Below, one piece after another: positions 833 through 59,317 of a stretch of DNA of 64,000 nt. The translations under genes were made by a program, and so were the position numbers. Every line of letters begins with the position of its first letter. Position 1 is the first letter of the stretch. Location: assembly GCA_041665605.1 (NCBI GenBank), contig JBAYIO010000005.1:20641-84640 (forward strand). Reading direction: 5' to 3'. The DNA comes from Victivallaceae bacterium (GTDB taxonomy: Bacteria; Verrucomicrobiota; Lentisphaeria; Victivallales; Victivallaceae). The notes under the pieces are model-generated. The model saw only the letters and a program-made list of their open reading frames with translations. It was not told the DNA's origin and searched no databases.

Positions 833-1219
833 ATGGAAATGTCAGTTAGTCGTAATGAACCATGCCCGTGCGGGAGTGGAAAGAAATATAAGAAGTGCTG
901 CCTCAACGTGAAGTCTGCAGCGGAGTCGCCATCACGTTTCCGGTTTGAATCCGGAAGTTACGGCGGTCCCGGCCGGCAATACATGCCGTCCATAATCAGT
1001 TACGAACAGATTACTCCAGAAAAGTGGAGTGAACATTTCTGCCTGGTCAACCCGGTTCAATGCTTTGATTCCGGAGATAAGGCGTCGGCTTTGGCCGAAG
1101 CCGATCTGAATGATGCGTCAGCAGCCAAGTCTGACAGCGGATCAGACGAGGATTTCGCAATGAGTCTCAAGAACAAGGGATACATGAAGGTGGATAATTT
1201 TCGGAGAGCAGTAAATTGA
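833..1219 (+). CDS. SEC-C motif domain protein
   Basis: N-terminal [13 protein letters not shown] matches the SecA C-terminal (SEC-C) zinc-binding motif. The rest of the protein is uncharacterised. Confidence 0.7.
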
Positions 1220-1465
1220 GCAGTAATTACAGCATATTGCCGTGTGGCGTAAAAGCTCAATTAATTCAATGATCAGCTACGCGTGAAGTTGATTATCCCT
1301 GCATCAAAGTTCAATATTGATCCGGCTTTACCCGATGATTTTCTCGTTACGAAGTCCTCATTCCGACAGACTGCCGGGCCGCATAACTGATTCTTTTATC
1401 GCTGCCGGCGCTGACATGTTTTCCGCTGGTATTGGTACTTTTTTGTTATTTTCTTAATTTACATA

Positions 1466-1494
1466 TTGACAAAAACAGAGATTTAATATATAAT
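1466..1494 (+). promoter_or_regulatory. sigma70-type promoter, perfect consensus (TTGACA-17 nt-TATAAT)
   Basis: TTGACA at 1466-1471, a 17-nt spacer, then TATAAT at 1489-1494. It lies 52 nt upstream of the ATG at 1546. Confidence 0.55.
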
Positions 1495-1498
1495 AACA

Positions 1499-1513
1499 TT
1501 GGACAGTGTCCAA
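1499..1513. promoter_or_regulatory. candidate operator, perfect 7-1-7 palindrome TTGGACA-G-TGTCCAA
   Basis: Starts 5 nt after the -10 hexamer, so it would overlap the predicted transcription start. An AraR-type regulator is encoded at the other end of the locus (7549-8616). Confidence 0.4.
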
Positions 1514-1545
1514 AAATAAAGCAATTGACCAAAACGGCGGATTTT

Positions 1546-2823
1546 ATGAATGGTAAAAGCACAGTAATCACACTTTCAGCGCTGATGTTGTTTTTTTGCA
1601 TTACGCTGGTTTCAACGGCGTCTGACGGTTTTTTCGCTTCCGGTCCGGATCGCGGCGCCGCCCTGCCGGCAGATAAAGTTTATCCTGCCGGACGGATTTT
1701 TCCATATACCGGTTTTTCGCCGAAAAACGTAGAGGAAACTAAGCAGCGGAAGTTCACGCTGGCCGGTCCGGCTTACGGCAAAGGGATTGAAATTCTGATG
1801 CGGCAGGCTGCGGAAGCCAAAATGCCGGTCATCTTTTCATTGGATATTAATTACAAGGGTAAAATTCTGAAAAAAGAGGATCTGGCGGAAAAGGCGATTG
1901 ACTGGAACGCGATTACAGACGACATCACCCGTCAGGTAAAGACCGCCGCCGCCGACAAATCAATCGCCTGGTGGTATCTCACCCCGGAAGAGCTGCGCTG
2001 GTGGATTCCCAATGAGATAAAATATTTGGAGCTGGCGTACAAGGCGATTAAAGCTGCCGACCCGGACAAACGCCCGGTATGGATGTATTCCCCCTGTCAC
2101 CGCAATGATGAAGCCATGGCGAAGGAAGCACGGTTTCAGGACATCGTCGGCAAAGGCACGTATGTCAATTACGCCGGACAGAAAGATTCAAGAGTCTGGG
2201 TGCGCTGGAGTATTGAGCAGGAAATAAGCGCCATCCGCCTGGCGGATAAGAAAGACGCGTTTCCGATTCTGGTGCCTGAAATGTTTCAGGAGCCTGCGGC
2301 GGAAGAAAAAGCCATGATCCCGCAATGGGTCAGGCATGACGTTTATCTCGGACTGGTTTCCGGAGCCAAAGGCATAGCTGTCTTTTCATTATGGGCGCGT
2401 CCGAAATTCCCGTCGCATCCGGTATATTATGAAACATATTGCAAGGTTGCCGAGGAACTTAACGGCGCTGCCGGACTCGGACAGGTTTTCCTGTTTGGCG
2501 AGCCGAAAAATGACATTCAGATGAAGATTGCCGGCGGACCGGCGACAGTCAATTGCAAACTTAAAATAAAAAAAGTGGAGACCTTCACCTATCCGGCAGT
2601 GGCGTTTGCGAATATCGCGTATGGCAATAAACGGTATCTGATCGCAGTGAATTCCGCCAGCAGCAATTTGACGGCTGAATTCACAGGCTTTCCCGAAACA
2701 GGAATTGCGGCGGTAAACGCCTTCTCTGGAAAGGCGGCGGAAATTCCGTTGAACGGTATTTTAAAACTTGAGCTTAAGCCTTATGAAGTCATCGGCCTGG
2801 TCTTTTCTTCAACTGAAAAATAA
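1546..2823 (+). CDS. secreted protein of unknown family (putative glycan hydrolase), paralog of 3630-4970
   Basis: Start moved from the track ORF (1432) to ATG 1546. This gives a signal peptide (MNGKSTVITLSALMLFFCITLVSTA) and places the start downstream of the promoter. Shares blocks with 3630-4970: IAWW.(L/I)TPEELR.W, ADP(D/E)KRPV(W/F)MY, EMFQ(E/Q)P, GAKG. Confidence 0.7.
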   Translation: MNGKSTVITLSALMLFFCITLVSTASDGFFASGPDRGAALPADKVYPAGRIFPYTGFSPKNVEETKQRKFTLAGPAYGKGIEILMRQAAEAKMPVIFSLDINYKGKILKKEDLAEKAIDWNAITDDITRQVKTAAADKSIAWWYLTPEELRWWIPNEIKYLELAYKAIKAADPDKRPVWMYSPCHRNDEAMAKEARFQDIVGKGTYVNYAGQKDSRVWVRWSIEQEISAIRLADKKDAFPILVPEMFQEPAAEEKAMIPQWVRHDVYLGLVSGAKGIAVFSLWARPKFPSHPVYYETYCKVAEELNGAAGLGQVFLFGEPKNDIQMKIAGGPATVNCKLKIKKVETFTYPAVAFANIAYGNKRYLIAVNSASSNLTAEFTGFPETGIAAVNAFSGKAAEIPLNGILKLELKPYEVIGLVFSSTEK

Positions 2824-2859
2824 TTGTTAAAATCAACCAAAATTATGGGGGTAAAAAAG

Positions 2860-3594
2860 ATGAAAACAACAGTAATCAACGGGAATCCTGGAAGGCGTTT
2901 TTTCACACTCATTGAACTCCTCGTGGTGATCGCGATCATCGCGATCCTCGCGGCAATGCTGCTTCCGGCGTTGAATAAAGCCAGGGAAAAGGCCAAGGCG
3001 ATCAAGTGCCTCAGCAATCAGAAACAGATAGGCACCGCGATCACAATGTATCTGGACAGTAATAATCAGTTTTTCTACAGTCCCTCCGTTGCAACGGCAT
3101 CCGAAGCGGGCGATCCGGCAAACGGCATGAACGTGATGTGGTCGGTACGTTTGAAGTTAGATAAATATCTGCCGACATATAATATCTTCTACTGTCCGAC
3201 AAATACGATCACCAATGACCTTAATTGTTCATACGGTTCATTCTATACAATAGTATCACCGAATTATCCGAATTACCCGGCAGTCTCAATGAAAAATCAG
3301 AAATATGCCAAAGTCGGATTTTCGAAGCTTGCATTAATCGGATGTTCATGGAGTGTCAGCACACAAAAACAGTGTTACAGAATGATTTTCAGCGGCGACA
3401 TTACCAGCGAACCTTACGGCCGGCCTTTTTTGACCCATGCCAATCAGGTGGATCTGCTGTTTGCTGACGGGCATGCGGCAGCAAAAGGCATCAATGAACT
3501 TAAGCCGCTATATTGTCCGCAGATTTATCTTACCAATCCTGTAAATATCGGGTCCGCCGCGGACAGAAGCGGTTCATTTTATTACAAGCTTTAA
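2860..3594 (+). CDS. prepilin-type N-terminal domain protein, H-X9-DG family (pseudopilin-like)
   Basis: [33 protein letters not shown]-terminus. C-terminal [12 protein letters not shown] (H-X9-DG). Start chosen at ATG 2860 (MKTTV), preceded by a GGGGG/A-rich stretch. Confidence 0.9.
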
Positions 3595-3629
3595 CCAAAA
3601 CGGCCAATGCAATTTTATCTGGAGCAAAT

Positions 3630-4970
3630 ATGAAGTTTAACAATGTTGTCATGCTGTCTGTACTATTCGCCGCCACAGGTTGTTCCGGTTTGAATACTGA
3701 TGTGAAAAAGTTTTTCAGTACCGGCGCCAACCCTGCGTCAACCCTGCCTGCCGATCAGATTTATCCGAAAGGTCAGCTCTTTCCGTTCAGCTTCTATTCA
3801 ACCGGCGGCGGGTCGGAAAAAAAGCGCGGTGAACTGCTGCCGGAAGCGGAGCTGCTGGCTGATCAGAAAGAGATTATTGACGCCGGCGTTACCATGATCG
3901 GACCGCAGTATGAATTGAACAACCGCATCGCCGCGGATGCCGCCAAGTACAAGGTGAAGGGTGTTTATACAATAATCCCGGTAATTGACGGGAAGGAAGT
4001 CACCAAAGAATATTTGAAGGAAATAAACGCAAGGAAAGAGCCGCTGGATATAGAGAAACTGCGGCAGTCGGTTTCCGATATCGTCAGCAAAGCCGGAGGC
4101 AGCAAAGAAATTGCCTGGTGGGATATTACTCCTGAAGAACTGCGCCCCTGGGTTCCGCAGGAATTGCTGCTGCTCAAGACCGCAACCGAGGCGATTAAGC
4201 AGGCCGATCCCGAAAAGCGTCCCGTCTTCATGTATTTTCCCGGCCATTATAACGGCAAAGCCATGGGGAAGCTGGCCGTTTATCTGGATATCATTGGCAA
4301 GGGCATGTACACCAATTACAGCAGTATGAAAAATTCAAGAAGCTGGTGCCGCTGGACCATCGAACAGGAAATTGAGGCGATTAAGCTTTCCGGTAACAAA
4401 AACTCCATTCCGGTAGCGGTTACCGAAATGTTCCAGCAGCCGCCCGCGGCGGAAGTAAAACTGATTGATTCATGGGTCAGGTATGATGTGTATTCCGCGC
4501 TGATCGCCGGGGCCAAAGGCGTATTGATATTTTCCGCTTCTAAACGACCAGATTTTTCCGCCAGAAAAGAATATCTGAACGCCTATTTTAAAGTCTGCCG
4601 CGATCTGAACGGGCCGCTGAAACTGGGACAGGTGTTTCTGTTCGGTGCGCCGATGAATGATATTACTCTCACGATTACCGACGGCCCGCAGACCGTGCCG
4701 TTCAAATATAAGACTGCCGGGGCGGACATCACCTATCCCGCGGTAAGCATGGCGAATATTGCGTACAACAGCAGCCGCTATATATTCCTGGTAAATTCCT
4801 CTGACAAGCAGATCGAGGCAGTAGTCGGCGGCCTGGTTTACGGCAGCGGCGTAACGATTGAAGATTTGTTTGCCGGCAGCGAAAAATTTACCGCACCTGA
4901 AGGTGATTTCAGCATAAAACTGGAACCGCTTGAAGCAAAAGCTTTCAGAATCTATAATGCTCAACCATAA
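3630..4970 (+). CDS. lipoprotein of unknown family (putative glycan hydrolase), paralog of 1546-2823
   Basis: Start at ATG 3630 with GGAG at 3621-3624. Lipobox LFAATG-C. Conserved blocks shared with 1546-2823. Confidence 0.75.
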   Translation: MKFNNVVMLSVLFAATGCSGLNTDVKKFFSTGANPASTLPADQIYPKGQLFPFSFYSTGGGSEKKRGELLPEAELLADQKEIIDAGVTMIGPQYELNNRIAADAAKYKVKGVYTIIPVIDGKEVTKEYLKEINARKEPLDIEKLRQSVSDIVSKAGGSKEIAWWDITPEELRPWVPQELLLLKTATEAIKQADPEKRPVFMYFPGHYNGKAMGKLAVYLDIIGKGMYTNYSSMKNSRSWCRWTIEQEIEAIKLSGNKNSIPVAVTEMFQQPPAAEVKLIDSWVRYDVYSALIAGAKGVLIFSASKRPDFSARKEYLNAYFKVCRDLNGPLKLGQVFLFGAPMNDITLTITDGPQTVPFKYKTAGADITYPAVSMANIAYNSSRYIFLVNSSDKQIEAVVGGLVYGSGVTIEDLFAGSEKFTAPEGDFSIKLEPLEAKAFRIYNAQP

Positions 4971-5006
4971 AATCTGTCTGCTGAATTATATTACACGGAG
5001 TTTCTG

Positions 5007-7562
5007 ATGCCTGAGAATGTTAAAATTGTCCTGAACAGTATTCGCCGCTGCTTTTATCGCGGGGAACATGCTGAATTCGAATTCACCCTGCTGAATTTCT
5101 TTCCTTATAATCTGCCGGGCTGCCGTCTGGAAGTTTCCGTCGGGGAACTCTGGTCGGATGCTTATGACATTCCGGTGTTATCAATTAATGCTGTAAACAT
5201 CAAGTTCAGATTCGATACTGCGATCCTGAAAAGCGGGGAGTATGTTCTCAAATGCCGTTTGTTGCAGCAGGATAAAACCGTTGCCGGAGCCGGCTTCAGC
5301 ATAACGGTGGCGACAGCCCGGAAACGCGGCTGCATGGAGTTATGGCACTGGCCGGCGACAGTTCATTACAACGCGCTCGAAGCTGATGATGAATCGGCCA
5401 GACTTGAAATCGACAAATTGGCGGCAATGGGCTACACCTGGGCGCAGCTCAGGGCGAGCTGGGCTGTGGTCAATCCGGGAAAAGCAACTGATTTGATCGA
5501 ATATGCCATGGCGCGCGGCATTGATATGGGCATTCTTATTGAAAACGGCAATGGCGGCTGCTTCAGGGCAGACCGTGACGTGCCGCCGGAAGCCAGGCTG
5601 ATTGACAGCAGCGGCAAGGTGACCGAATTCGTTTTTCCGCACCATCCAATGGTGTTGAATAAGCATCGGATATTGCTTGAACGCATCATGCTGCTGTTCC
5701 GGGAGCTGCCTTCATGCACCACCGTTTTTGTGAACAGCGAAGTGGAAGACAAATTGAAGCTGCCATGCAATCCGGAAGCGCTGAAAATGCACGAGGCGGC
5801 GCTGGGCTTTTCGCCTTTGGAAAAATTGAAAAGCACTGAACGGGTTTTTGCCTCACCCTATCCTGATGCGCCGTTTGTTTCTCCCGGCGTAATTGCCGAT
5901 GATGATCCGGAATATCTGTACGCCAAATACTTTTTTAAACACGGCGACGGTTTTGTCATAACCAACGGCACGATGGCTGAAGTTATTCACCGCTACCGTC
6001 CGGATGTAAAAGTTATTACCGACCCGCTGCGGCTGTGTTCAGTTTACGGGCGCTTTGACGGCGCGGATATTGTGAGTTCATGGACATATACCAACCCCGA
6101 CCCGAAAGCTACATTATTCATAGAAACGCTGCTGGCCGAGGCCCGCCCGGACAACAAGGATGTAATTCATACCATTACCCTGTGGAACTATGCAGGAAGC
6201 CTTATACCCAGCGGAAAAGACCGTTTTGCCCGCGACAAGACACTGCGCATGGAGCCGGACCGTTTGCTGGAAAATGCCTGGATTAATTTTGCGCGCGGCC
6301 CCAAAGGCATCGGAACTTACTTCGGCAGTCCCATGGAACTGTTTTTCGAAAACGGCGATCCGTTCATATATTCCCCGGAAACGGAAAAAGCCATCGGTGA
6401 TTTTGCGCTTAATGTGATGGCGCCGTTCGGCGAGATGGTCCGAAAAACCGCCGCGGTTCCGCGCCGGGCGGCCGTCCTTGACTCTTTTGCCTCCAGGGTT
6501 TATGGCGTCTGTCCCCGTCCTTACAATCATTATCCGATTTATTACATCTACAACTTTTATACTGTTTTGAATATGGCGCATATTCCGGCCGATGTGCTGT
6601 TCGACGAAACCATAGTTGAAAAAGGGCTTGACAGCTATGATTTGCTGGTGCTGCCCAACTGCGACACCTTGCCGGAAAGCGTCTATAAGGAGATATTGAA
6701 GTTTGTCCGCAAAGGTGGAATCGTCGTTGCCGACCAGTATCTCCGGGCGGACATTCCCGGCGTCATCCGCTTTGATTTTGACTTTACCTACCGTTCCCGC
6801 GTAAATGCCAATGCCAATGCGCGGGGAATGGATTTTGCCGTAAAAGACGATACTGCTTTCCGGCAGGACAGCGATGAAAAACAGCTTGAAGGGGTCACCG
6901 CCGAAGCTGACCAGCAGGCGCTTGAAACCTATGCGGCGAAAGTCCGCGAAACGCTTGACGGAAAAATTGTCCGTGACGTGGATTGTTCATCGCCGCGTCT
7001 GCTGCTGAATATGCGCGAATACAGCGGCATAAAATATCTCTTTGTCGTGAACGATCACCGTACTTACGGAGAGCGTGTCGGCAAATACAAATCAATGCTG
7101 GAAAAAGGGCTGCCCGAAAACGCGGAGTTCACTGTCCGCGATCCCGGTTTTGAGCCGGTAATTTACGAACTGACTACTCACTGCCGGCTTGAGTGCCGCA
7201 AAAATGCTGAAGGGAATTATAATTTCGAGCTGAATGTTCCCGCCGCCGGAGGGTGCATTGTTGCGTTTTATCCGGCTGCGCTGGGGCCGGCCGGGATTGA
7301 AGTTCCGCCATGTATTACACGCGGAACGCGCTCAGTCATTAACGTCTCGCTTGGAAATGCAGCCGGACTCCAGCCGCTGAAAATTGCCATGACAGACTCG
7401 AAAGGTTGCCGCAGCGAGTTCAGCGGATACTATCTGGCGGAAAACGGCTCATGCTCGATGGAATTTATCCCGGCGGCAAATGAGCCCTCCGGAAAATGGT
7501 CTGTGGAAACCATTGATTTGACATCCGGCGATAAATGCAGGAAAGATATTAATATTGCTTGA
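5007..7562 (+). CDS. large cytoplasmic protein, putative glycoside hydrolase with a GH42-like C-terminal module
   Basis: 851 aa with no signal peptide. GGAG precedes the ATG. The segment YDLLVLPNCDTLPESVYKEILKFVRKGGIVVADQ resembles the glutamine-amidotransferase-like trimerisation module of GH42-type enzymes. The family call is tentative. Confidence 0.6.
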   Translation: MPENVKIVLNSIRRCFYRGEHAEFEFTLLNFFPYNLPGCRLEVSVGELWSDAYDIPVLSINAVNIKFRFDTAILKSGEYVLKCRLLQQDKTVAGAGFSITVATARKRGCMELWHWPATVHYNALEADDESARLEIDKLAAMGYTWAQLRASWAVVNPGKATDLIEYAMARGIDMGILIENGNGGCFRADRDVPPEARLIDSSGKVTEFVFPHHPMVLNKHRILLERIMLLFRELPSCTTVFVNSEVEDKLKLPCNPEALKMHEAALGFSPLEKLKSTERVFASPYPDAPFVSPGVIADDDPEYLYAKYFFKHGDGFVITNGTMAEVIHRYRPDVKVITDPLRLCSVYGRFDGADIVSSWTYTNPDPKATLFIETLLAEARPDNKDVIHTITLWNYAGSLIPSGKDRFARDKTLRMEPDRLLENAWINFARGPKGIGTYFGSPMELFFENGDPFIYSPETEKAIGDFALNVMAPFGEMVRKTAAVPRRAAVLDSFASRVYGVCPRPYNHYPIYYIYNFYTVLNMAHIPADVLFDETIVEKGLDSYDLLVLPNCDTLPESVYKEILKFVRKGGIVVADQYLRADIPGVIRFDFDFTYRSRVNANANARGMDFAVKDDTAFRQDSDEKQLEGVTAEADQQALETYAAKVRETLDGKIVRDVDCSSPRLLLNMREYSGIKYLFVVNDHRTYGERVGKYKSMLEKGLPENAEFTVRDPGFEPVIYELTTHCRLECRKNAEGNYNFELNVPAAGGCIVAFYPAALGPAGIEVPPCITRGTRSVINVSLGNAAGLQPLKIAMTDSKGCRSEFSGYYLAENGSCSMEFIPAANEPSGKWSVETIDLTSGDKCRKDINIA

Positions 7563-8616
7563 CGCTGGTTCGCTCAACAAGCGTGCTATGGACATGGCTG
7601 ATTTCAGGCTTTTCGCCGTTCAGAATCCATTTTTGCAGCATATCGACAGCGGCTTCGCCCTGTTCGCGCGCCGGTTCAGCAAAAAACGACAATCCGTTGA
7701 GTTCCGCATCCGGCCAGGTGATTCCGTCATAAGAGATAACCGAAAGATCGTCGGGTATTCTGATCTTATGTTTCCGGCACGAACTGAAAAGCAGTGCGGC
7801 CCGGTAATCGCGAACTGTAAATATTGCGGTCGGCATATTTGTTTTGAGCCGGAGCAGATAATCATCGGTTTTCTCATGGTCCTCCTGGTAAATATCTGCC
7901 AGACACCACTCTTTGTTAAATTCCAGATCCTCTTCAGCCAGTGCGCCTTTGAATCCGGTGAAGAATTCTTTGTAAAAGTAATTTTCCGGACTGCCGAGCC
8001 AGATTCCGATGCGCCGGTGTCCCTTGCTCTTCAAATACCGTACCGCGTTTCTGGCAATTTCACGGAAATCCAAAAATACCTTTACCGCATCAAATCCGTT
8101 CATATCCGAAGCAATGACGTAAGGGATGCCGGCTTTTTCAAGCGGTTTGATCAGGTCTGCATAATTACCGCACTGCAAGTATATGACGCCCTGGATGTCG
8201 CCTTTGGTGTACAGTGTTATGATTTCATCGGTGACAGTATCCGAGTCGGAAAAATTCATCAGATATTCGGAATTTTTCCTCTCCGCGCCGGCACAGGCGC
8301 CAAGCAGTAACTGCGACGCCACCGGCAGATAATTGAAAGTCCCGAAGTCCGAGGTTTTCAGAAAAAAGCGCTTGAGCACCGGACGTCCGACCAGGGTTCC
8401 GGTCACCAGCACGCCGCGCCCCGGATAAAGCTGCACCAGCCCTTCTTCCTGCAGCAGGCGGAAAATATTATGCACCGTACTTTTGGAGATGTTGAGTTTT
8501 GCGCCGATCGAACGGGCCGACGGCAGATATGATCCCGGCTTGTATTTCCCGGATAAAATAGCCTCCCGCAGATAAGCACGTCCGCCCTGCGCTTTTGATT
8601 TGATTGTATCCGTCAT
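7549..8616 (-). CDS. AraR-type chimeric regulator (GntR wHTH N-terminus plus LacI/PBP1 sugar-binding C-terminus)
   Basis: N-terminus: ILSGKYKPGSYLPSARSIGAKLNISKSTVHNIFRLLQEEGLV...GRGVLV. C-terminus has LacI-type blocks (RRIGIW, TAIFTVRDY, IPDDLSVISYDG). Confidence 0.85.
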   Translation of the reverse strand: MTDTIKSKAQGGRAYLREAILSGKYKPGSYLPSARSIGAKLNISKSTVHNIFRLLQEEGLVQLYPGRGVLVTGTLVGRPVLKRFFLKTSDFGTFNYLPVASQLLLGACAGAERKNSEYLMNFSDSDTVTDEIITLYTKGDIQGVIYLQCGNYADLIKPLEKAGIPYVIASDMNGFDAVKVFLDFREIARNAVRYLKSKGHRRIGIWLGSPENYFYKEFFTGFKGALAEEDLEFNKEWCLADIYQEDHEKTDDYLLRLKTNMPTAIFTVRDYRAALLFSSCRKHKIRIPDDLSVISYDGITWPDAELNGLSFFAEPAREQGEAAVDMLQKWILNGEKPEISHVHSTLVERTSVKQY

Positions 8617-8866
8617 TTTCGCCTCCCGGCAGTCATCACCCGGCCATACTATTGCATCCGTACATTATAATTTATAACCGCAAGGCATGAAAACAAGAAA
8701 TCACGGAATAAATCCCGTGGAATTTACCACAAAAAACAGCGGAAAAAATGTTTATACACGGACTTTAACTCCGGCGTGATATCTTTTTATCGAAAACAGG
8801 TTGCAAAACCGGCATTCAAGATGCAATTTATTAAAAATAACAATCATGATTAACAATTAACTGGAT

Positions 8867-9388
8867 ATGACTATCATGGAAAAACATACAATTTCGGTTT
8901 TGGTTGAAAATAAATTCGGGGTTCTGGCCAGGATTGCGGGGCTGTTCAGCGGCCGCGGCTACAATATCTCGTCGCTGACCGTCAACGAGACGCACGATCC
9001 GAACGTATCCAAGATGACAATTGTCACCACCGGTGATGAAGCGGTGCTTGAACAGATTGACAAGCAGCTTAACAAGCTGGTGGACGTGATTAAAGTCGAA
9101 GACCTGACCGGCAGCCGTTTCATCGAGCGTGAACTGGCATTGATCAAAGTCAAAGCGGAGAACCATGAGCAGCGTTCACAGATACTGCAACTGGTCGAGA
9201 TTTTTGAAGGCAAGATTGTGCTGGTCCATACCAATGAACTGGGCATTGAGCTTCACGGCAGAGCGGATAAAATTGATAATTTCATTGAACTGATCAAAGA
9301 TTATGAAATTGTCGAGACTGCGCGTTCCGGCCGGGTGGCGATTTCGCGCACCGCGGGGAAAAATGAGGATATCAAGACCATCAATTAA
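8867..9388 (+). CDS. ilvH: acetolactate synthase small (regulatory, ACT-domain) subunit
   Basis: ISVLVENKFGVLARIAGLFSGRGYNISSLTV...MTIVTTGDEAVLEQIDKQLNKLVDV aligns closely with E. coli IlvH as recalled. No large subunit is adjacent. Confidence 0.9.
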   Translation: MTIMEKHTISVLVENKFGVLARIAGLFSGRGYNISSLTVNETHDPNVSKMTIVTTGDEAVLEQIDKQLNKLVDVIKVEDLTGSRFIERELALIKVKAENHEQRSQILQLVEIFEGKIVLVHTNELGIELHGRADKIDNFIELIKDYEIVETARSGRVAISRTAGKNEDIKTIN

Positions 9389-9662: not shown

Positions 9663-11072
9663 ATGACCACAGCTCCGCCGGTAAAAATCCGCTTTTCCCA
9701 GGGTACGCTGCTGCTTGAAGCCACGCCCGGACAACTTATTCCGGTTGCCCGTGACGTGATTTTCGATGAACGGGTCAAGCTCTACCGGGCGCAGGCATAT
9801 AAATACGCCGGAATAATTATCGCCCTCCGGGAACACAAAATTGATTTTATCGACGAAGCCCGCGCCTATTCGCAACTGGAGCTTGAACTTCATGCCGGAT
9901 TTACGCCGCGTCCGCATCAGCAGGAGGCGTTCCGCTGCTGGCGCGTGGAAGCTGCCGGGCGGGCGATGATCGTCATGCCGACCGGCTCCGGTAAAACTTA
10001 TCTGGCGGTAATGGCGATAAGTGCGATCAAGCGGCCGGCGCTGATTGTCGTTCCAACCATCGACCTGATGCAGCAGTGGGCCAGTTCGCTGGAGAAGTTT
10101 TTCCGCTGCAAGGTCGGAATGCTCGGCGGCGGCAGCCGCGAGATCGAGCCGGTCACGGTAACTACTTACGACTCGGCGGTGATACACATGGAATTCATCG
10201 GCAACCGTTTCGGCTTCGTGATTTTTGACGAATGCCACCATCTGCCGGGCCAGGTCAACCGCACCGCCGCTTCCATGTGCATGGCCCCTTACCGCCTGGG
10301 ACTGACCGCCACGCCCGACCGCGAGGACGGCGGCAATGAGATTATGGAGGAACTGATCGGACCGATTGCCTACCAGATACATATCGACGAACTTGAAGGC
10401 TCCGTTCTGGCGCCTTACATCACCCGGCGGCTGGAACTGGCGCTGGAGCCGGATGAAGCCGCCGAATATCAACTGTCGCGGCAGATTTATACCGGTTTTC
10501 TGCGCCGCAACGGCATTACGTTCAATCAGAAAAGCGACTGGGCCAGGTTCATCGGACTGTGCGCCCGGCAGCCGGACGGGCGCAAAGCCCTCGACGCTTA
10601 TCTTGCGCAGCGCCGGATTGCCCGCGCCGGCAGAAGCAAATTCAATAAAGTATGGGAATTGATCTGCCGTCATCGCGGCGAACGGGTCATTGTGTTCACC
10701 GCCGATAACGACACCGCCTACGACATGGGACGCAGTTTTCTGCTGCCGGTGATCACCCACCGGACCAAGGCCGCCGAACGCAAGGAGTTCCTGGACAACT
10801 TCCGTTCCGGGCAGTATCCGGTGCTGATTACGAGCAAGGTGTTGAATGAGGGGGTGGATGTGCCGGAGGCCGGAGTCGGGATCATTGTTTCCGGCAGCGG
10901 CAGCATCCGCGAACACGTCCAGCGCCTGGGGCGGATACTGCGGGCAGGGGAGGGCAAGCAGGCCGTATTGTACGAACTGGTCAGCGAAGGCACTTCCGAG
11001 GTCAACGTCAGTGAGCGGCGGCGCGAACACCGCGCCTATAAAAATCATTTCAGTTATAAAAGGCGGTTCTGA
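9663..11072 (+). CDS. xpb: XPB/Ssl2/Rad25-type SF2 DNA helicase
   Basis: Motif I MPTGSGKT, motif II DECHH, motif III GLTATP followed directly by the XPB-specific RED motif (TATPDREDG), and motif VI QRLGRILR. Confidence 0.85.
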   Translation: MTTAPPVKIRFSQGTLLLEATPGQLIPVARDVIFDERVKLYRAQAYKYAGIIIALREHKIDFIDEARAYSQLELELHAGFTPRPHQQEAFRCWRVEAAGRAMIVMPTGSGKTYLAVMAISAIKRPALIVVPTIDLMQQWASSLEKFFRCKVGMLGGGSREIEPVTVTTYDSAVIHMEFIGNRFGFVIFDECHHLPGQVNRTAASMCMAPYRLGLTATPDREDGGNEIMEELIGPIAYQIHIDELEGSVLAPYITRRLELALEPDEAAEYQLSRQIYTGFLRRNGITFNQKSDWARFIGLCARQPDGRKALDAYLAQRRIARAGRSKFNKVWELICRHRGERVIVFTADNDTAYDMGRSFLLPVITHRTKAAERKEFLDNFRSGQYPVLITSKVLNEGVDVPEAGVGIIVSGSGSIREHVQRLGRILRAGEGKQAVLYELVSEGTSEVNVSERRREHRAYKNHFSYKRRF

Positions 11073-12314
11073 ATGCTGACCAAGGATCTGATGAAATTCC
11101 GCCGCAGCGGCGAAACGGTCAAACCGGTGTTCATTGCGGTTGATGATCCGGCCAATCTGGAGCTGGCATCGGAACTGCTGGCGGTCTACCGCCTGCCGGA
11201 GGACGGGCCGCCGCCGACCCGCGGCGAACTTGAGGAAATCGTCGAACCGCTGCTTAACGCTCATAAAGACGTCAAGCTGGCAAAGGGTTTTAACAAGCTC
11301 ATTCTGGACCGCTGTAAATTTACGATGCCGCTGGAATTTGATTATGCCGGGTTGCGGCGGAAACTCTTTACCGGATCAGCCGCCATGCTCACCGGCGGAA
11401 CCGCCGGTCTGGCGGAATACCGCCGTCTGCTGCTCGAGTCGGTTCCGGAATCCGCCAATATCATCGACGGCGGCATTTATGCCGATCTGCCGCAGAACGA
11501 AACGCTGGTTACGGTCAAACCGATGTTCACGAAGGAGCTGCTTGAACGCTATAATTGTTCCCAGGTGCAGGCATTGCTGTTCTATTGCAGCGACATGCTG
11601 GCGGAGGTTGAAGACCCGGACCCCGCGGAAATGCGCCGCATCTTCAAGTACCTGAAATTTTTCCGGCTGCTGGCGGAAGTCAAGAAAATGCCGGACGGCA
11701 AAGATGAAGCGGGCAATAAAACCATGCGCATTCAGATGCAGATCAGCGGCCCCGCCGGTATTTTTGAAAATTCCCGTAAATACGGCTTGCAGCTCGCAAC
11801 TTTTTTTCCGGCGGTATGCCTGTTGAAAAAGTGGACGGTTAAGGCGGAGATTGACCTGGACGGCAGAAAATGCAAGCTGCGGCTGGACTGGAAAAGCAAT
11901 CTGGTCAGCCATTACCGCAATTTCAGCGCCTATGTTCCGGAGGAAGTCGCCATGTTCCACCGCCTGTTCAAAGAAAAAATACAGGACTGGCAGATTGTCG
12001 GCGACACCCCGTTTTTCGATGCAGGCAATCAGGAAATAATCTTTGCCGACCTGAGTTTTAAAAACTCCGGCGGCAAAATCGTTCATCTGGAACTTTTTCA
12101 CCGCTGGCATTCCACCCCGCTGCTGAAGCGCCTGGAATATTGCGCAGCCCATCCTGAGCTGCCGTTCATCATCGGCGTTGACCGCAGTCTGTCCGAACGT
12201 CCCGAAATAAAGCAAGTCCTGGACAACAGTGATTTCTTTCAGAAAAAAGGTTTTCTCTTCCGCGACTTCCCCGGAGTAGAGCGCGTCTACAAACTCCTGG
12301 AATCCGTTAGTTAG
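11073..12314 (+). CDS. Bax1-like nuclease (DUF790) partner of XPB
   Basis: 413 aa. Its ATG abuts the helicase TGA (TGAATG). Size and strict adjacency match the archaeal XPB-Bax1 arrangement. The family is assigned from context and length, not from a verified motif. Confidence 0.6.
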   Translation: MLTKDLMKFRRSGETVKPVFIAVDDPANLELASELLAVYRLPEDGPPPTRGELEEIVEPLLNAHKDVKLAKGFNKLILDRCKFTMPLEFDYAGLRRKLFTGSAAMLTGGTAGLAEYRRLLLESVPESANIIDGGIYADLPQNETLVTVKPMFTKELLERYNCSQVQALLFYCSDMLAEVEDPDPAEMRRIFKYLKFFRLLAEVKKMPDGKDEAGNKTMRIQMQISGPAGIFENSRKYGLQLATFFPAVCLLKKWTVKAEIDLDGRKCKLRLDWKSNLVSHYRNFSAYVPEEVAMFHRLFKEKIQDWQIVGDTPFFDAGNQEIIFADLSFKNSGGKIVHLELFHRWHSTPLLKRLEYCAAHPELPFIIGVDRSLSERPEIKQVLDNSDFFQKKGFLFRDFPGVERVYKLLESVS

Positions 12315-14772: not shown

Positions 14773-15082
14773 TTCATTTCTCCTTGTCGTTTTCTGTTTT
14801 TTGTGAAAAGCATAATTACTCCATACGTTCTATTGGCCCTCCTTATTTAGTTGCGCAATTTTTTTGTTTGAGTCAAATTTTTATGACTCAATTAAAATTA
14901 ACTTTGTTGCATAAACTGTTTAAAATTCTTTTAGTATATATTGCAGGCCGGATGCAGGAATCCTGCAACCGGTTATATAATATTCCGGTAATCCGGTGTT
15001 ATTTATTCCGGCAGATCATTGCCGGCAGTTCCGTTGCCGGATCGCAAATGGTTCTGAGCAGTCTTTAACTTGCGGAGGCGAG

Positions 15083-16510: not shown

Positions 16511-16573
16511 GCTTTACTGCATTTCTTTAAATTATCTGTCCGCTGACGAGCAAATCCCGTCAGGGTATTGCAC

Positions 16574-17977: not shown

Positions 17978-18014
17978 TCGCCAATCCTTTATTAAGCAGT
18001 ATGGCCCCGCTTCG

Positions 18015-19814: not shown

Positions 19815-20554
19815 TTAGCATCAGCTCCTTTCTTTATCATGTCTGCCGCAAATTTCGCCCATGCCGGATTTTTCCAGAATAGAGCGGTTGCGGTATCGGC
19901 GGTTCCGGATGGGATTCCCAGGAAAACTATAATTTGTCCTTTTTCACATTTTTTTGTAATCCACAACGGCTGATTATTGGATTTATAGATAATCTCCGCA
20001 TCATCAACCAATGGAATATCATGCAGATAAACCACCACCCCGCCTGGAGTCTCAAGCGGATTTTTCAGCTTTTTTACCGCCCATGGATTTTCGGTTTTTG
20101 CCGGCAGAAGTGAAGCGAACGGAGTCTGGCTGAATTCCCCTTTGTTCAAGGTGAAAAGCCCTCCCAGTATTACTAAAGTGGCGCCGCGCCTGACATCTTT
20201 AATGATAGATTTCTGGGCAATATCGGGCATTACTCCGGCATTTAAAGGGAAGTCGGCCATGATGATATATTTTCTGGCTTTCTTCGGGTTTATCGGCGGG
20301 AGTTTATCAAGCCTGAATTGATTCTCCGGTGTCAACGCCGGAGTGAGATTGGTGATAGTATAATCCGCCGTCTTTTTGACTCCCAGTTCTTTCAAAATTT
20401 CCGGAATTTTATAACGTTCGAAAGCAATTCCGCGAAAAACCAGGGCTTCATCCGCCAGTACATCCGCCTCTGCCGTTCCTGCTCCCGCCGCAATCAGGAA
20501 GCTGAAATAAACAATCAGTGGAGGCAGCATCATAAGTTTCCATCGTGTTTGCAT
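19811..20554 (-). CDS. secreted protein, class-I glutamine-amidotransferase-like fold (tentative)
   Basis: 247 aa with a signal peptide. Paralog of the C-terminal half of 16574-17977. Confidence 0.65.
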   Translation of the reverse strand: MQTRWKLMMLPPLIVYFSFLIAAGAGTAEADVLADEALVFRGIAFERYKIPEILKELGVKKTADYTITNLTPALTPENQFRLDKLPPINPKKARKYIIMADFPLNAGVMPDIAQKSIIKDVRRGATLVILGGLFTLNKGEFSQTPFASLLPAKTENPWAVKKLKNPLETPGGVVVYLHDIPLVDDAEIIYKSNNQPLWITKKCEKGQIIVFLGIPSGTADTATALFWKNPAWAKFAADMIKKGADAK

Positions 20555-20577
20555 GTCATTCCTTACAAAAAAACAGA

Positions 20578-21228: not shown

Positions 21229-21277
21229 TTTGTTTCTCCTTTTTTATCTTCTATTATTTATTTCAAAATGGTATCGT

Positions 21278-22012: not shown

Positions 22013-22039
22013 TTTGTCTTCTCCGTTAAATGTTAGGGT

Positions 22040-23164: not shown

Positions 23165-23228
23165 TTAAATCTCCAGATTTTTTTTATTTATTTTATCCTG
23201 CAAGTTTATCCCGCAGGAATAATTAAAT

Positions 23229-57787: not shown

Positions 57788-58057
57788 AGTAGTCGCCCTT
57801 GACGCAAGTGAAAAAAGAGACTGCGGATTAATGCCTGAACCAGATAACCTAGATAACAAGCACCGAAGAATCACAAAATAGTTCGCGATGTCCTCCCCTC
57901 AATCTAAAAAACATTACGTGCAGCAATTTTGCTTGCAAATATCTTGCAAAGTATAATCTTATTAAGCTCACTATGCGGATATTTTGATCCGTCATAAAGA
58001 GGCATTGCATAAATTTAAATATTTATCAATAAAATTAAATAAAATTGTATAAAAAAG

Positions 58058-58086: not shown

Positions 58087-58092
58087 ATTTAT

Positions 58093-59303: not shown

Positions 59304-59317
59304 GGAAAAAATTTAAA

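What the first reader, a model, noticed from the sequence alone, without database searches (positions are those of the whole stretch)
1466..8616. Locus A: same pseudopilin-centred grammar, with two paralogous unknown exo-proteins flanking the pseudopilin
The locus opens with a consensus promoter and a palindrome (1466-1513).

Gene order:
- secreted 425-aa protein
- H-X9-DG pseudopilin (2860-3594)
- lipoprotein paralog (3630-4970)
- 851-aa protein without a signal peptide and with a GH42-like C-terminal module
- convergent AraR-type regulator, whose 3' end overlaps the 851-aa gene by 14 bp (7549-7562)

The intergenic gaps of 36, 35 and 36 nt indicate a single operon. The two paralogs share blocks with invariant Glu residues (TPEELR and (P/T)EMFQ), spaced like the acid/base and nucleophile of clan GH-A barrels; this reading is a by-eye inference. 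No transporter is encoded.
Basis: partly seen in the sequence, partly recalled or inferred. Interest (0 to 1): 0.68.

Follow-up and report, generated by a model that had tools for sequence, protein, structure and literature searches.

The report
Repressor-controlled glycan operon with pseudopilin
This is a sugar-polymer utilisation operon of a Victivallaceae (Lentisphaerota) bacterium that combines two exported enzymes of an unclassified glycosidase-like family, a locus-specific pilin-like protein, a cytoplasmic GH42-like protein and a repressor whose DNA site is conserved across species; the general kind is ordinary, but the enzyme families and the role of the pilin-like protein are unexplored.

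Summary
Coordinates, the 36/35/36-nt gaps, the 14-bp convergent overlap, the perfect TTGACA-17-TATAAT promoter and the 15-bp palindrome are all present.

- **Paralogs.** The two are 40% identical. They belong to an exported PVC family of 628 clusters at 50% identity, with no Pfam or PDB relative by sequence.
- **Paralog fold.** An AlphaFold model (pLDDT 94) gives a (beta/alpha)8 barrel plus a beta-sandwich. The invariant Glu148/149 follow strand 4 and Glu245 ends strand 7, which is the clan GH-A pattern. Carboxylate geometry could not be measured.
- **851-aa protein.** It has GH42/GH35 architecture and no signal peptide. No Glu sits at the end of the strand I number as 7, so its mechanism is open.
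- **Regulator.** It has the AraR architecture. TGGACA-N-TGTCCA lies just downstream of the -10 box in at least 12 orthologous Lentisphaeria loci (22 sites against 1.2 expected). In Victivallis it also sits beside an MFS_2 sugar transporter gene.
- **Pseudopilin.** The DUF1559 gene is always adjacent to a paralog gene despite shuffled gene order. Its globular domain is locus-specific.

Verdict: a real, regulated glycan-utilisation operon with candidate new glycosidase families. The substrate and the pseudopilin's role remain unknown.

The parts
1466..1494 (+). Sigma-70-type promoter: TTGACA (1466-1471), 17-nt spacer, TATAAT (1489-1494)
   Evidence: This is the only 12/12 consensus match in 1200-9000. 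The same TTGAC[AT]-17-TATAAT lies upstream of orthologous operons in L004, L005/L013, L010, L011, L012, L015, L016, L017, L020, L022, L064 and L074.
1499..1513 (.). Predicted operator: perfect palindrome TTGGACA-G-TGTCCAA, starting 5 nt after the -10 box and covering the expected transcription start
   Evidence: It is the only zero-mismatch copy in 64 kb. The core TGGACANTGTCCA is conserved at the same position in orthologous loci. There are 22 sites in 732 kb against 1.2 expected by shuffling. Binding by the regulator is inferred, not shown.
1546..2823 (+). Paralog 1 (425 aa): exported, soluble (beta/alpha)8 barrel plus C-terminal beta-sandwich. Unclassified clan GH-A-like family. Candidate acid/base Glu148/Glu149 (TPEELR, nt 1981-1998); candidate nucleophile Glu245 (PEMFQ, nt 2275-2289)
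   Evidence: AF2 pLDDT 94.4, pTM 0.91. Foldseek matches to GH13/GH5/GH30/GH27/GH164 have TM about 0.5 and 10-12% identity. Invariant residues are listed. There is no Pfam or NCBIfam hit. The N-terminus looks like a signal peptide.
2860..3594 (+). DUF1559 / H-X9-DG pseudopilin-like protein (244 aa): pilin-type N-terminal helix (FTLIE, nt 2902-2916), conserved Cys50/Cys112, H193-X9-DG204 (nt 3436-3471)
   Evidence: Pfam and NCBIfam hits. PDB hits to pilins and GspG cover the N-terminal ~57 residues only. Alignment A3. The C-terminal domain is orthologous to the pseudopilins of orthologous loci but not to the two other copies in the window.
3630..4970 (+). Paralog 2 (446 aa): predicted lipoprotein (lipobox-like ATGC, Cys18) of the same barrel family. 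TPEELR at nt 4128-4145, TEMFQ at nt 4422-4436
   Evidence: 40% identical to paralog 1. The lipobox was found by pattern. A separate 'paralog 2' subfamily is conserved in L004, L009, L010, L014, L017 and L029.
5007..7562 (+). 851-aa protein without signal peptide: N-terminal Ig-like domain, (beta/alpha)8 barrel, GH42M-like domain, two C-terminal beta-sandwiches. Invariant N243-S-E245-x-E-D248 after strand 4 (nt 5733-5750)
   Evidence: AF2 pLDDT 92.8, pTM 0.93. Foldseek top matches are GH42 and GH35 enzymes, E = 1e-18 to 1e-13, TM 0.42-0.57. GH42M is found in 37/37 family members, and no catalytic-domain Pfam hit is found.
7549..8616 (-). AraR-type regulator (355 aa): GntR winged helix plus LacI/GalR-type sugar-binding domain. 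Its 3' end overlaps the 851-aa gene by 14 bp (7549-7562)
   Evidence: Pfam GntR 3.2e-13, Peripla_BP_3 1.8e-25, Peripla_BP_1 1.5e-11. Orthologs (E = 1e-87 to 1e-117) sit in the orthologous loci. Recognition-helix residues are shared among loci that carry the operator.
8664..8693 (-). Candidate promoter of the regulator gene (TTTTCA-18-TATAAT, 10/12); no operator copy nearby
   Evidence: This is a consensus scan only. No palindrome match with up to 3 mismatches lies in 8617-8866. The assignment is weak.

Best explanation
Locus A is a substrate-inducible glycan-utilisation operon of a Victivallaceae bacterium.

**Repression (inferred).** Without the inducer, the AraR-type regulator (7549-8616) binds as a dimer to the palindrome at 1499-1513. 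That site covers the transcription start of a consensus promoter, so binding blocks transcription of four genes. A sugar released from the substrate binds the regulator's LacI/GalR-type domain and lifts repression.

**Extracellular or periplasmic step (inferred).** Two exported paralogs, one soluble and one lipid-anchored, are glycosidases of an unclassified (beta/alpha)8 family. They have the clan GH-A arrangement: acid/base Glu148 or Glu149 after strand 4 and nucleophile Glu245 at the end of strand 7, which implies a retaining mechanism. They cut an extracellular or periplasmic glycan.

**Cytoplasmic step (inferred).** Oligosaccharides are imported by a transporter encoded elsewhere; in Victivallis this is an MFS_2 symporter under the same operator. 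The cytoplasmic 851-aa GH42/GH35-like protein then processes them.

**Pseudopilin (least certain).** The DUF1559 pseudopilin-like protein is a locus-specific partner of the exported enzymes. It is anchored in, or assembled from, the inner membrane by its pilin helix. It most likely serves secretion or surface display of these enzymes, or capture of this particular glycan.

**Shown versus inferred.** Shown here are the gene structures, folds, residue conservation, conserved promoter/operator, gene linkage and export signals. Inferred are the catalysis, the substrate class, the regulator-operator pairing, the direction of regulation and the pseudopilin's role.
For: **Organism**
- The 851-aa protein is 100% identical to a Victivallaceae MAG protein.

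**Operon and operator**
- The window has a perfect promoter plus palindrome.
- The same module lies upstream of orthologous genes that are only 45-56% identical, in at least 12 loci. There are 22 sites against 1.2 expected, and 12 lie within 12 nt downstream of TATAAT.
- Two additional sites lie between the MFS_2 transporter gene and the regulator gene in L013, L015 and L016.
- L014 lacks the site and has a more divergent regulator, with changes in the recognition helices.

**Paralogs as enzymes**
- The model is confident, and all top structural matches are TIM-barrel glycosidases.
- E148 and E149 are invariant and E245 is near-invariant across 50 sequences that are 38-84% identical.
- The strand positions of these residues come from the DSSP string.
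- Weak, individually non-significant signals point to GH-A: the GH2 N-E-P motif aligns to P-E148-E149, and GH26 and GH2_C give weak Pfam hits.
- 47 of 50 members have export signals.
- Some members are fused to Laminin_G_3, dockerin, Ig and PATR modules.
- UniRef labels the V. vadensis member as a GH42 N-terminal domain protein.

**851-aa protein**
- The architecture matches GH42/GH35.
- 33 of 37 members lack a signal peptide.

**Linkage**
- Paralog, pseudopilin and 851-aa genes co-occur in about 16 Lentisphaeria loci with shuffled order. They also co-occur in one Chthoniobacterales and one Sedimentisphaeraceae locus.
- An MFS_2 gene also lies near the 851-aa gene in L040 and L045.

**Pseudopilin**
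- It is always directly next to a paralog gene.
- Its C-terminal domain is 25-91% identical to those of orthologous loci over 166-203 aa. The two in-window paralogs align over only 17-23 aa around H-X9-DG.
- A PulG-like pseudopilin gene sits inside an alginate cluster, and a pseudopilin was over-expressed on alginate, in a Verrucomicrobiota isolate (PMC13274419).
Against: - No activity, substrate or transcript data exist for any of these genes.
- The canonical Asn before the acid/base is replaced by Pro in the paralogs.
- Structural matches are generic (TM about 0.5) and include clans GH-H and GH-D as well as GH-A. All sequence links to GH-A are statistically weak (E = 0.37; hhalign probability 5%).
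- The 851-aa protein has T391-L-W-N394-Y395 where GH42 and GH35 would have the strand-7 nucleophile. It may use another residue (D339, D365 or E373), use another mechanism, or not be a hydrolase.
- In distant PVC genomes the paralog family occurs without the pseudopilin or the 851-aa gene, once beside a GGDEF gene and with a polysaccharide-export gene about 4 kb downstream.
- No operator lies upstream of the regulator gene in this window.
- The pseudopilin lacks Gly at position -1, and no type II secretion or type IV pilus genes lie in the 64 kb.
Confidence: 0.7

Rival explanations
1. The two paralogs are non-catalytic glycan-binding or capture proteins. They would be barrel-shaped lectins or pseudo-enzymes that hand substrate to other enzymes, and only the 851-aa protein would be catalytic.
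For: No sequence-level membership in any glycosidase family was found. The Asn of the N-E motif is missing. One paralog is a lipoprotein, as surface glycan-binding proteins often are. Structural matches have only TM about 0.5.
Against: The acidic residues are invariant exactly at the strand-4 and strand-7 positions across 50 diverged sequences. Some members are fused to lectin-like Laminin_G_3 modules, which would be redundant for a binding protein. Every top structural match is an active glycosidase with the same barrel-plus-sandwich layout.
Confidence: 0.12
2. The locus serves the cell's own envelope or exopolysaccharide rather than nutrient acquisition. The exported barrels and the pseudopilin would remodel or release a self-made glycan or support a surface fibre.
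For: In a Pirellulales contig the paralog gene sits directly after a GGDEF gene, with a Polysacc_synt flippase gene about 4 kb downstream. In Prosthecobacter it stands alone among housekeeping genes. The window itself carries glycosyltransferase and sugar-nucleotide genes at 42-51 kb.
Against: The locus has a sugar-sensing repressor architecture. The operator is shared with an MFS_2 sugar importer gene in Victivallis. Catabolic neighbours include GH95, GH32, CE15-like and sulfatase genes. The large enzyme is cytoplasmic. The window's other pseudopilin loci carry GH130, a sulfatase and a GH123-like protein.
Confidence: 0.1
3. The pseudopilin gene is a generic structural subunit of a type II secretion or type IV pilus system, one of many interchangeable paralogs. 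Its place in the operon would have no locus-specific meaning.
For: The N-terminal 45 residues are nearly identical among all copies. Such genes are very numerous in PVC genomes; 67 copies were counted in one Verrucomicrobiota isolate (PMC13274419).
Against: The gene stays directly adjacent to a paralog gene through several gene-order rearrangements and across three phyla. Its globular domain is conserved with the locus (25-91% identity) and unrelated to the other two copies in the same genome apart from the H-X9-DG motif.
Confidence: 0.15
4. The 851-aa protein is not a glycoside hydrolase. It would be a GH42-shaped protein that has lost the nucleophile and acts as a phosphorylase or transglycosylase, as a substrate-assisted hexosaminidase-type enzyme, or as a non-catalytic scaffold.
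For: Invariant T391/N394/Y395 sit where the strand-7 Glu is expected. An invariant E245-x-E247-D248 cluster follows strand 4. No catalytic-domain Pfam hit is found in any of 37 members. A beta-1,2-glucosyltransferase is among the best structural matches.
Against: Strand numbering comes from a DSSP string only. Nine strands are listed in the barrel region, so D365 or D339 could sit at the nucleophile position. Other clan GH-A marks are kept, namely Asn after strand 3, N-x-E after strand 4 and Tyr after strand 6. More than 60 positions are invariant, which argues for an enzyme.
Confidence: 0.3

Closest known systems
AraR-controlled arabinan/arabinose utilisation genes of Bacillus subtilis (GntR-family AraR subfamily)
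   Same: The regulator has a GntR winged-helix N-terminus fused to a LacI/GalR-type sugar-binding domain. A palindromic operator overlaps a sigma-70 promoter, and the targets are glycoside hydrolases and, in Victivallis, a sugar transporter.
   Different: The operator sequence is TGGACA-N-TGTCCA; from my own knowledge the AraR box is ATTTGTACGTACAAAT-like. The effector is unknown. No operator was found at the regulator's own promoter in this window. The phylum differs (Lentisphaerota), and so do the regulated genes.
Clan GH-A ('4/7 superfamily') glycoside hydrolases, e.g. GH5 ManDH5 (9gmj), GH30 XynC (3kl0), GH2 beta-glucuronidase (4jkk)
   Same: The layout is a (beta/alpha)8 barrel followed by a beta-sandwich. 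A Glu follows strand 4 and a Glu ends strand 7, 97 residues apart, with an aromatic residue after strand 6. The alignment to the GH2 acid/base segment and the following DPxKRPV strand is consistent.
   Different: Identity is only 10-12% and TM about 0.5. No existing Pfam, NCBIfam or PDB sequence family matches. The motif is P-E-E instead of N-E-P. GH13 and GH27 (other clans) score equally well by fold.
GH42 beta-galactosidases and GH35 archaeal exo-beta-D-glucosaminidases (5e9a, 4uni, 8ibs, 5gsm, 6jow); also GH164 and GH167
   Same: The order is barrel, then GH42M (glutamine-amidotransferase-like) domain, then beta-sandwich. The location is cytoplasmic. The GH42M segment aligns to GlmA at E = 3e-4.
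   Different: There is an extra N-terminal Ig-like domain and a second C-terminal sandwich. The barrel has no sequence similarity to GH42 or GH35. N-S-E replaces N-E after strand 4, and no Glu sits at the end of the strand I number as 7.
Type II secretion major pseudopilin GspG/PulG and type IV pilins
   Same: The N-terminal hydrophobic helix carries Glu5 (FTLIE). The protein matches TIGR02532, GspG, PilA and ComGC models over residues 8-70. A conserved Cys pair is present.
   Different: The residue before Phe1 is not Gly. In Lentisphaeria it is N/I/F/S/K/H/R, and in Planctomycetota and Verrucomicrobiota copies it is Ala. The roughly 190-aa DUF1559 globular domain with H-X9-DG has no solved relative. 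The gene is encoded inside a catabolic operon rather than a gsp or pil cluster.
Alginate-utilisation cluster of Verruconatronum alginivorum with a PulG-like pseudopilin (PMC13274419)
   Same: In a PVC bacterium, a pseudopilin paralog is encoded inside a polysaccharide-degradation cluster, belongs to a large paralog family (67 copies), and a pseudopilin is induced by the substrate.
   Different: The enzymes differ (polysaccharide lyases there) and so does the phylum. The authors only suggest type II secretion of the lyases; no mechanism is shown.
Bacteroidota polysaccharide utilisation loci (SusC/SusD type)
   Same: Both are co-regulated sets of surface or periplasmic and intracellular glycan-degrading proteins, including a lipoprotein enzyme and a dedicated sensor-regulator.
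   Different: No SusC/SusD pair or TonB-dependent transporter is present. A pilin-like protein occupies the 'always present' slot, and the regulator type differs.

Membership tests
Clan GH-A (paralogs 1546-2823 and 3630-4970) | (beta/alpha)8 barrel catalytic domain | tested here: met
   AF2 model with pLDDT 94.4 shows eight strand/helix units plus a C-terminal sandwich. Foldseek probability is 1.0 to many TIM-barrel glycosidases.
Clan GH-A (paralogs) | Acid/base Glu at the C-terminal end of strand 4 and nucleophile Glu at the end of strand 7 | tested here: met
   Invariant E148/E149 lie 3-4 residues after strand 140-145. Near-invariant E245 is the last residue of strand 242-245. This was tested only at the level of secondary-structure positions.
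Clan GH-A (paralogs) | Asn immediately before the acid/base Glu (N-E motif) | tested here: not met
   The motif is T-P-E-E in both paralogs, and P147 is near-invariant.
Clan GH-A (paralogs) | Carboxylates about 5 A apart in a pocket at the C-terminal face of the barrel; measurable retaining activity | not testable with these tools
Any existing sequence-defined GH family (paralogs) | Significant match to a family profile or a characterised member | tested here: not met
   There is no Pfam or NCBIfam hit at E < 0.1 for paralog 1. PDB phmmer and hmmsearch give only spurious or E = 0.37 hits. Only 2 of 50 members touch GH26 and 1 of 50 touches GH2_C, all weakly. CAZy itself could not be queried.
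GH42 (851-aa protein) | Barrel + GH42M trimerisation-type domain + beta-sandwich | tested here: met
   Foldseek top hits are GH42 enzymes aligned over roughly 770-780 columns. GH42M is detected in 37/37 family members, although the window protein scores 23.3 bits, below the 25.8 cut-off.
GH42 (851-aa protein) | GH42 catalytic-domain sequence signature (Pfam Glyco_hydro_42) | tested here: not met
   No hit is found in any of 37 members even at E <= 1.
GH42 / clan GH-A (851-aa protein) | Nucleophile Glu at the end of strand 7 | tested here: inconclusive
   With my strand numbering the position holds invariant T391...N394-Y395 and no Glu. Nine strands are listed in the barrel region, so D365 or D339 could be at the true position. 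Coordinates are needed.
AraR subfamily of GntR regulators (7549-8616) | GntR winged helix-turn-helix fused to a LacI/GalR-type periplasmic-binding-protein fold | tested here: met
   PF00392 at residues 14-71, E = 3.2e-13. PF13377 at residues 192-352, E = 1.8e-25. PF00532, E = 1.5e-11.
AraR subfamily of GntR regulators | Binds a palindromic operator at the promoters of the genes it controls; released by a sugar | tested here: inconclusive
   A conserved palindrome sits at the promoter in at least 12 orthologous loci that carry or adjoin regulator orthologs. This is strong comparative support, but binding and the effector are untested.
Type IV pilin-like / pseudopilin superfamily, DUF1559 H-X9-DG subgroup (2860-3594) | N-terminal methylation/cleavage-type hydrophobic helix with Glu5 | tested here: met
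   TIGR02532 scores 21.8 bits against a 16.3 cut-off. FTLIE lies at residues 15-19. PDB pilin matches cover residues 15-71.
Type IV pilin-like / pseudopilin superfamily | Gly (rarely Ala) at position -1 of the prepilin peptidase site | tested here: not met
   Position -1 is Phe here. Among 19 Lentisphaeria-type copies only one has Gly.
DUF1559 H-X9-DG subgroup | DUF1559 profile match and C-terminal H-X9-DG motif | tested here: met
   PF07596 scores 24.5 bits against a 23.3 cut-off. H193-X9-D203-G204 is invariant in alignment A3.
Bacteroidota-type PUL | Adjacent SusC-like TonB-dependent transporter and SusD-like lipoprotein | tested here: not met
   Neither was found among the ORFs of the window that I scanned with Pfam.

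The most novel reading that the evidence does not exclude
In Lentisphaeria, and in part of the wider PVC group, each glycan-utilisation operon carries its own DUF1559 pseudopilin. The variable globular domain of that protein would be the substrate- or cargo-specific adaptor of a shared pilus-like or type II secretion-like machine. This would be a PVC counterpart of the SusC/SusD logic of Bacteroidota: the pseudopilin either selects the co-encoded exported enzymes for secretion or display, or captures the cognate glycan. In that reading, the two barrel paralogs and the 851-aa protein would found new glycoside hydrolase families.
Probability: 0.25. Interest if true: 0.8.

Novelty: new variant of a known kind. 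Interest (0 to 1): 0.55.

Why it matters
Lentisphaerota, Planctomycetota and Verrucomicrobiota are major degraders of complex and sulfated glycans in guts, sediments and oceans. Their loci are poorly understood because they lack the SusC/SusD markers used to find such loci in Bacteroidota.

This locus offers four testable things:
- **A candidate new glycosidase family.** It comprises 628 clusters at 50% identity, all annotated as hypothetical. Two residues are already pinpointed for mutagenesis.
- **A GH42-shaped protein with an unassigned nucleophile.** No Glu sits at the expected strand-7 position.
- **A regulator-operator pair.** It is defined well enough by comparative genomics to map a regulon in Victivallis, a cultivable human-gut genus.
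- **A tractable case for DUF1559 H-X9-DG pseudopilins.** These proteins exist in tens to hundreds of copies per PVC genome, and almost no literature exists on them. Four papers mention DUF1559, and none addresses function.

The three-locus recurrence in one 64-kb window (regulator + pseudopilin + carbohydrate-active enzymes) suggests a practical rule for finding glycan loci in these phyla.

Tried and rejected
1. **Sequence searches of both enzyme families against PDB and Pfam.**
   - These returned nothing usable for the barrels. The sorting nexin-25 hits for the paralog profile are spurious.
   - hhalign of the paralog profile against E. coli UidA gave only 5% probability. I use it only as a register check.
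2. **Literature on DUF1559 and H-X9-DG.** Four and one papers respectively mention these terms, and none addresses function. The 2026 laminarin/PVC paper mentions no pilins. No paper links Victivallales, pilins and glycoside hydrolases. The Helbert et al. 2019 CAZyme screen lists several Victivallis enzymes; I could not map their accessions to these genes.
3. **Metagenome scan for TATAAT-N4-9-TGGACARTGTCCA.** It returned 76 loci.
   - Only L064 and L074 (orthologous operons) and L101 (a secreted beta-helix PF12708 protein) have a -35 box and plausible targets.
   - I judge the rest to be chance matches or unrelated conserved DNA. The scan did not reveal the missing transporter.
4. **Analogous palindromes at the two other regulator/pseudopilin loci of the window.** None was convincing.
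5. **Operator at the regulator's own promoter in this window.** None was found.
6. **Substrate inference from neighbours.** The contexts are too varied to name a substrate: GH95 pair, GH32, CE15-like, sulfatase, DegT/Gfo-Idh-MocA/xylose-isomerase-like trio, GGDEF/flippase.
7. **RNA elements.** There are no Rfam families or tRNAs in the window.

Full report
**1. What is in the sequence**

- 1546-2823 (+, 425 aa)
- 2860-3594 (+, 244 aa)
- 3630-4970 (+, 446 aa)
- 5007-7562 (+, 851 aa)
- 7549-8616 (-, 355 aa)

Independent gene calls on public contigs that carry the same genes agree. The 851-aa product is 100% identical to a protein of a Victivallaceae MAG, so the window comes from Lentisphaerota.

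The gaps are 36, 35 and 36 nt, and the convergent overlap is 14 bp. Upstream, TTGACA (1466-1471), a 17-nt spacer and TATAAT (1489-1494) form the only perfect promoter match in 1200-9000. Five bases further lies the perfect palindrome TTGGACA-G-TGTCCAA (1499-1513), unique in the 64 kb at zero mismatches.

**2. The two paralogs**

- *Relationship.* They share 40% identity (E = 1e-104) and both carry TPEELR and (P/T)EMFQ.
- *Family.* Neither has a Pfam, NCBIfam or PDB sequence relative. Homologs are plentiful but are annotated only as 'hypothetical'. They come from Lentisphaerae, Verrucomicrobia and Planctomycetes. A profile search of 1.84 billion representative proteins finds 628 clusters at 50% identity, 316 of them at E <= 1e-30.
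- *Conservation.* In a 50-sequence alignment E148 and E149 are invariant and E245 is near-invariant. Also conserved are Y206, N208, R263, H264, D265 and Y267.
- *Fold.* The AlphaFold model is very confident (pLDDT 94.4, pTM 0.91). It shows eight strand-helix units followed by a beta-sandwich.
- *Structural matches.* Foldseek against the PDB returns only TIM-barrel glycosidases with the same two-domain layout: GH13, GH5 ManDH5, GH30, GH27 and GH164. TM is about 0.5 and identity 10-12%. The fold class is clear, but there is no close relative.
- *Candidate catalytic residues.* In the DSSP string E148/E149 follow the fourth barrel strand (140-145) and E245 is the last residue of the seventh (242-245), with Tyr206 after the sixth.
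- *Weak sequence links to GH-A.* Two alignments, individually non-significant, put E148 on the N-E-P acid/base of GH2 beta-glucuronidases and align the following DPxKRPV strand. A few members touch GH26 and GH2_C profiles, and 13 of 50 touch an amylase-type C-terminal sandwich. UniRef labels the Victivallis vadensis member as a 'GH42 N-terminal domain' protein.
- *Export and fusions.* 47 of 50 members have export signals. The orthologs of the second paralog have lipoboxes. Some members are fused to Laminin_G_3, dockerin, Ig or PATR modules.

All of this fits exported enzymes rather than binding proteins. Three things remain untested or unmet. The carboxylate geometry could not be measured because coordinates are not exposed. 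The canonical Asn before the acid/base is Pro. No activity is known.

**3. The 851-aa protein**

- *Fold.* The model (pLDDT 92.8) has an N-terminal Ig-like domain, a barrel, a GH42M-like domain and two beta-sandwiches.
- *Structural matches.* The best are GH42 beta-galactosidases and GH35 enzymes, at E = 1e-18 to 1e-13 and TM 0.42-0.57. The GH35 matches are the Ignavibacterium beta-1,2-glucosyltransferase and archaeal exo-beta-glucosaminidases.
- *Sequence signal.* Only the GH42M segment is detectable by sequence. It aligns to GlmA at E = 3e-4, and all 37 family members hit PF08532. The barrel has no known sequence relative.
- *Location.* 33 of 37 members, including this one, lack a signal peptide; distant Planctomycete members have one.
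- *Candidate catalytic residues.* After strand 4 there is an invariant N243-S-E245-x-E247-D248. After strand 6 there is W359-T-Y361.
- *Missing nucleophile.* At the end of the strand I number as 7 the residues are T391-L-W-N394-Y395, with no Glu. Nine strands are listed in the barrel region, so the numbering is uncertain and D339, D365 or E373 may be the partner. I leave the mechanism open and treat 'not a classical hydrolase' as a live rival.

**4. The regulator and its site**

The 355-aa protein has a GntR winged helix and a LacI/GalR-type binding domain, which is the AraR architecture.

The comparative test was informative. I fetched 41 loci encoding relatives of the 851-aa protein plus several by exact look-up, and annotated them with profiles built here.
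- *Conserved position.* The core TGGACANTGTCCA (up to 1 mismatch) lies directly downstream of TTGAC[AT]-17-TATAAT in L004, L005/L013, L010 (twice), L011, L012, L015, L016, L017 (twice), L020 and L022. The proteins in these loci are only 45-56% identical to those of the window.
- *Statistics.* Over 732 kb of non-redundant loci there are 22 sites against 1.2 expected from shuffles. Twelve lie within 12 nt downstream of TATAAT.
- *Transporter link.* In V. vadensis and two relatives, two more sites lie between the regulator gene and a divergent MFS_2 (glycoside-pentoside-hexuronide type) transporter gene.
- *Negative control.* L014, whose regulator is more divergent, lacks the site and differs in the recognition helices.

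The regulator-operator pairing is therefore well supported, although binding itself is untested. The position of the site over the transcription start argues for repression. No site precedes the regulator gene in this window.

**5. Linkage and the pseudopilin**

- *Identity.* The 244-aa protein passes DUF1559 and the prepilin N-terminal domain model. It has FTLIE, a conserved Cys50/Cys112 pair and H193-X9-DG. PDB pilins match only its first ~57 mature residues.
- *Co-occurrence.* Paralog, pseudopilin and 851-aa genes co-occur in about 16 Lentisphaeria loci with shuffled order. Examples are TIM-PIL-TIM-BIG, REG-TIM-BIG-TIM-PIL and REG-TIM-PIL-BIG-BIG2. They also co-occur in one Chthoniobacterales and one Sedimentisphaeraceae locus. 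The pseudopilin gene is always directly beside a paralog gene.
- *Locus specificity.* Its globular domain is 25-91% identical to the pseudopilins of orthologous loci over 166-203 residues. The two other DUF1559 copies of the same window align over only 17-23 residues around H-X9-DG. The globular domain is therefore locus-specific, which argues against a generic structural subunit.
- *Recurrence in the window.* The window's other two copies (21278-22012 and 59318-59983) each sit next to an AraR-type regulator and carbohydrate-active enzymes: GH130 and a sulfatase in one case, a GH123-like protein in the other.
- *Only published parallel found.* In a Verrucomicrobiota isolate a PulG-like pseudopilin gene with 67 paralogs sits inside the alginate cluster, and a pseudopilin was among three over-expressed genes outside the two alginate clusters. 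The authors suggest type II secretion of the lyases (PMC13274419).
- *Oddities.* The residue before Phe1 is not Gly in Lentisphaeria copies, although it is Ala in Planctomycetota and Verrucomicrobiota copies. No secretion or pilus machinery lies in the 64 kb.

**6. Most likely mechanism**

1. A sugar-responsive repressor holds a strong promoter shut.
2. On induction, two exported retaining-type glycosidases of a new GH-A-like family are made, one free and one lipid-anchored. A locus-specific pseudopilin is made with them and helps to secrete or display them, or to capture the glycan.
3. Oligosaccharides enter through a transporter encoded elsewhere (MFS_2 in Victivallis) and are processed by the cytoplasmic GH42/GH35-like protein.

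The anatomy, folds, conservation, linkage and operator conservation are shown. The catalysis, substrate, repression and pseudopilin role are inferred. Neighbouring genes in other genomes do not agree on a substrate. They include GH95, GH32, CE15-like, sulfatase and amino-sugar or keto-sugar enzymes.

**7. Comparison with known systems, and novelty**

The system works like an AraR-type catabolic operon and like a polysaccharide utilisation locus. It is not a Sus-type PUL, since no SusC/SusD pair is present.

Its enzymes resemble clan GH-A and GH42/GH35, but they fail sequence membership in any family I could test. CAZy could not be queried.

I rate it a new variant of a known kind. The operon logic is ordinary and the catalytic families are unclassified. 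The obligatory locus-specific pseudopilin is a feature whose function is unknown.

Interest is moderate (0.55). It would be high if the pseudopilin proved to be the specificity element of a PVC glycan-acquisition machine.

Noticed in passing
window 2899-2901 (codon before FTLIE); also 21278-22012 (-), 59318-59983 (+); loci L004-L049: The residue at position -1 of the putative prepilin cleavage site is not Gly in Lentisphaeria DUF1559 proteins: N 7, I 4, F 2, S 2, and K, H, R and G once each. All seven Planctomycetota/Verrucomicrobiota copies have Ala. Either the peptidase of these bacteria has relaxed specificity, or the proteins stay uncleaved as membrane anchors.
   Followed up: partly
window 6177-6191 (residues 391-395 of the 851-aa protein): Invariant T391, N394 and Y395 sit where GH42 and GH35 enzymes would have the strand-7 nucleophile Glu. 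An invariant E245-x-E247-D248 cluster follows strand 4. The catalytic machinery is unassigned.
   Followed up: partly
window 12403-24323 (-): This is a second locus of the same grammar: an AraR-type regulator (23229-24323), GH130 (22040-23164) and a DUF1559 pseudopilin (21278-22012). Then come three proteins without Pfam hits (20578-21228, 19811-20554, 18015-19814), a GATase1_like protein (16574-17977), a sulfatase (15083-16510) and a beta-helix + Laminin_G_3 protein (12403-14772).
   Followed up: partly
window 58045-62510 (+): This is a third locus of the same grammar: an AraR-type regulator (58045-59271), a DUF1559 pseudopilin (59318-59983) and a 718-aa protein with a weak GH123 catalytic-domain hit (60354-62510). 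No palindrome comparable to the locus A operator was found there.
   Followed up: partly
L010 10331-10388 and 6434-6491; L017 2277-2334 and 5727-5784: In some relatives the gene set is split into two units, or duplicated in tandem. Each unit has its own TTGAC[AT]-17-TATAAT promoter and operator copy.
   Followed up: no
window 7549-7562; L010 12452-12468: The convergent regulator gene overlaps the last operon gene, by 14 bp here and 17 bp in L010, with no terminator between them. Induced transcription of the operon would therefore run antisense into the repressor gene. This could give a feed-forward effect, but that is purely speculative.
   Followed up: no
window 9663-12314 (+): An XPB/ERCC3-type helicase (469 aa) is immediately followed by a DUF790 protein (413 aa), as a conserved pair just downstream of locus A.
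   Followed up: no
L005 10568-13651; L013, L015, L016 equivalents: Victivallis loci carry a second, 1027-1155-aa distant relative of the 851-aa protein (E = 1e-73 to 1e-91 against the family profile) directly downstream. They have only one barrel paralog. The protein has no Pfam hit.
   Followed up: no
L101 433-455 and 606-2009: In an unrelated metagenome contig, the same promoter + TTGGACAATGTCCA module precedes a secreted right-handed beta-helix protein (PF12708, E = 1e-14). This is possibly another member of the regulon in some organisms.
   Followed up: partly
L045 11909-16574: In a Chthoniobacterales contig the PIL-TIM-BIG trio is followed by a DegT-type aminotransferase, a xylose-isomerase-like barrel, a Gfo/Idh/MocA oxidoreductase and an MFS_2 transporter. 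This hints at an amino- or keto-sugar route.
   Followed up: no
window 27004-28983 (+) and 29998-31332 (+): Further carbohydrate genes lie under AraC-type regulators: a 659-aa CE15/acetyl-xylan-esterase-like protein and a GH4 enzyme, then a glucosamine-6-phosphate isomerase-like protein.
   Followed up: no
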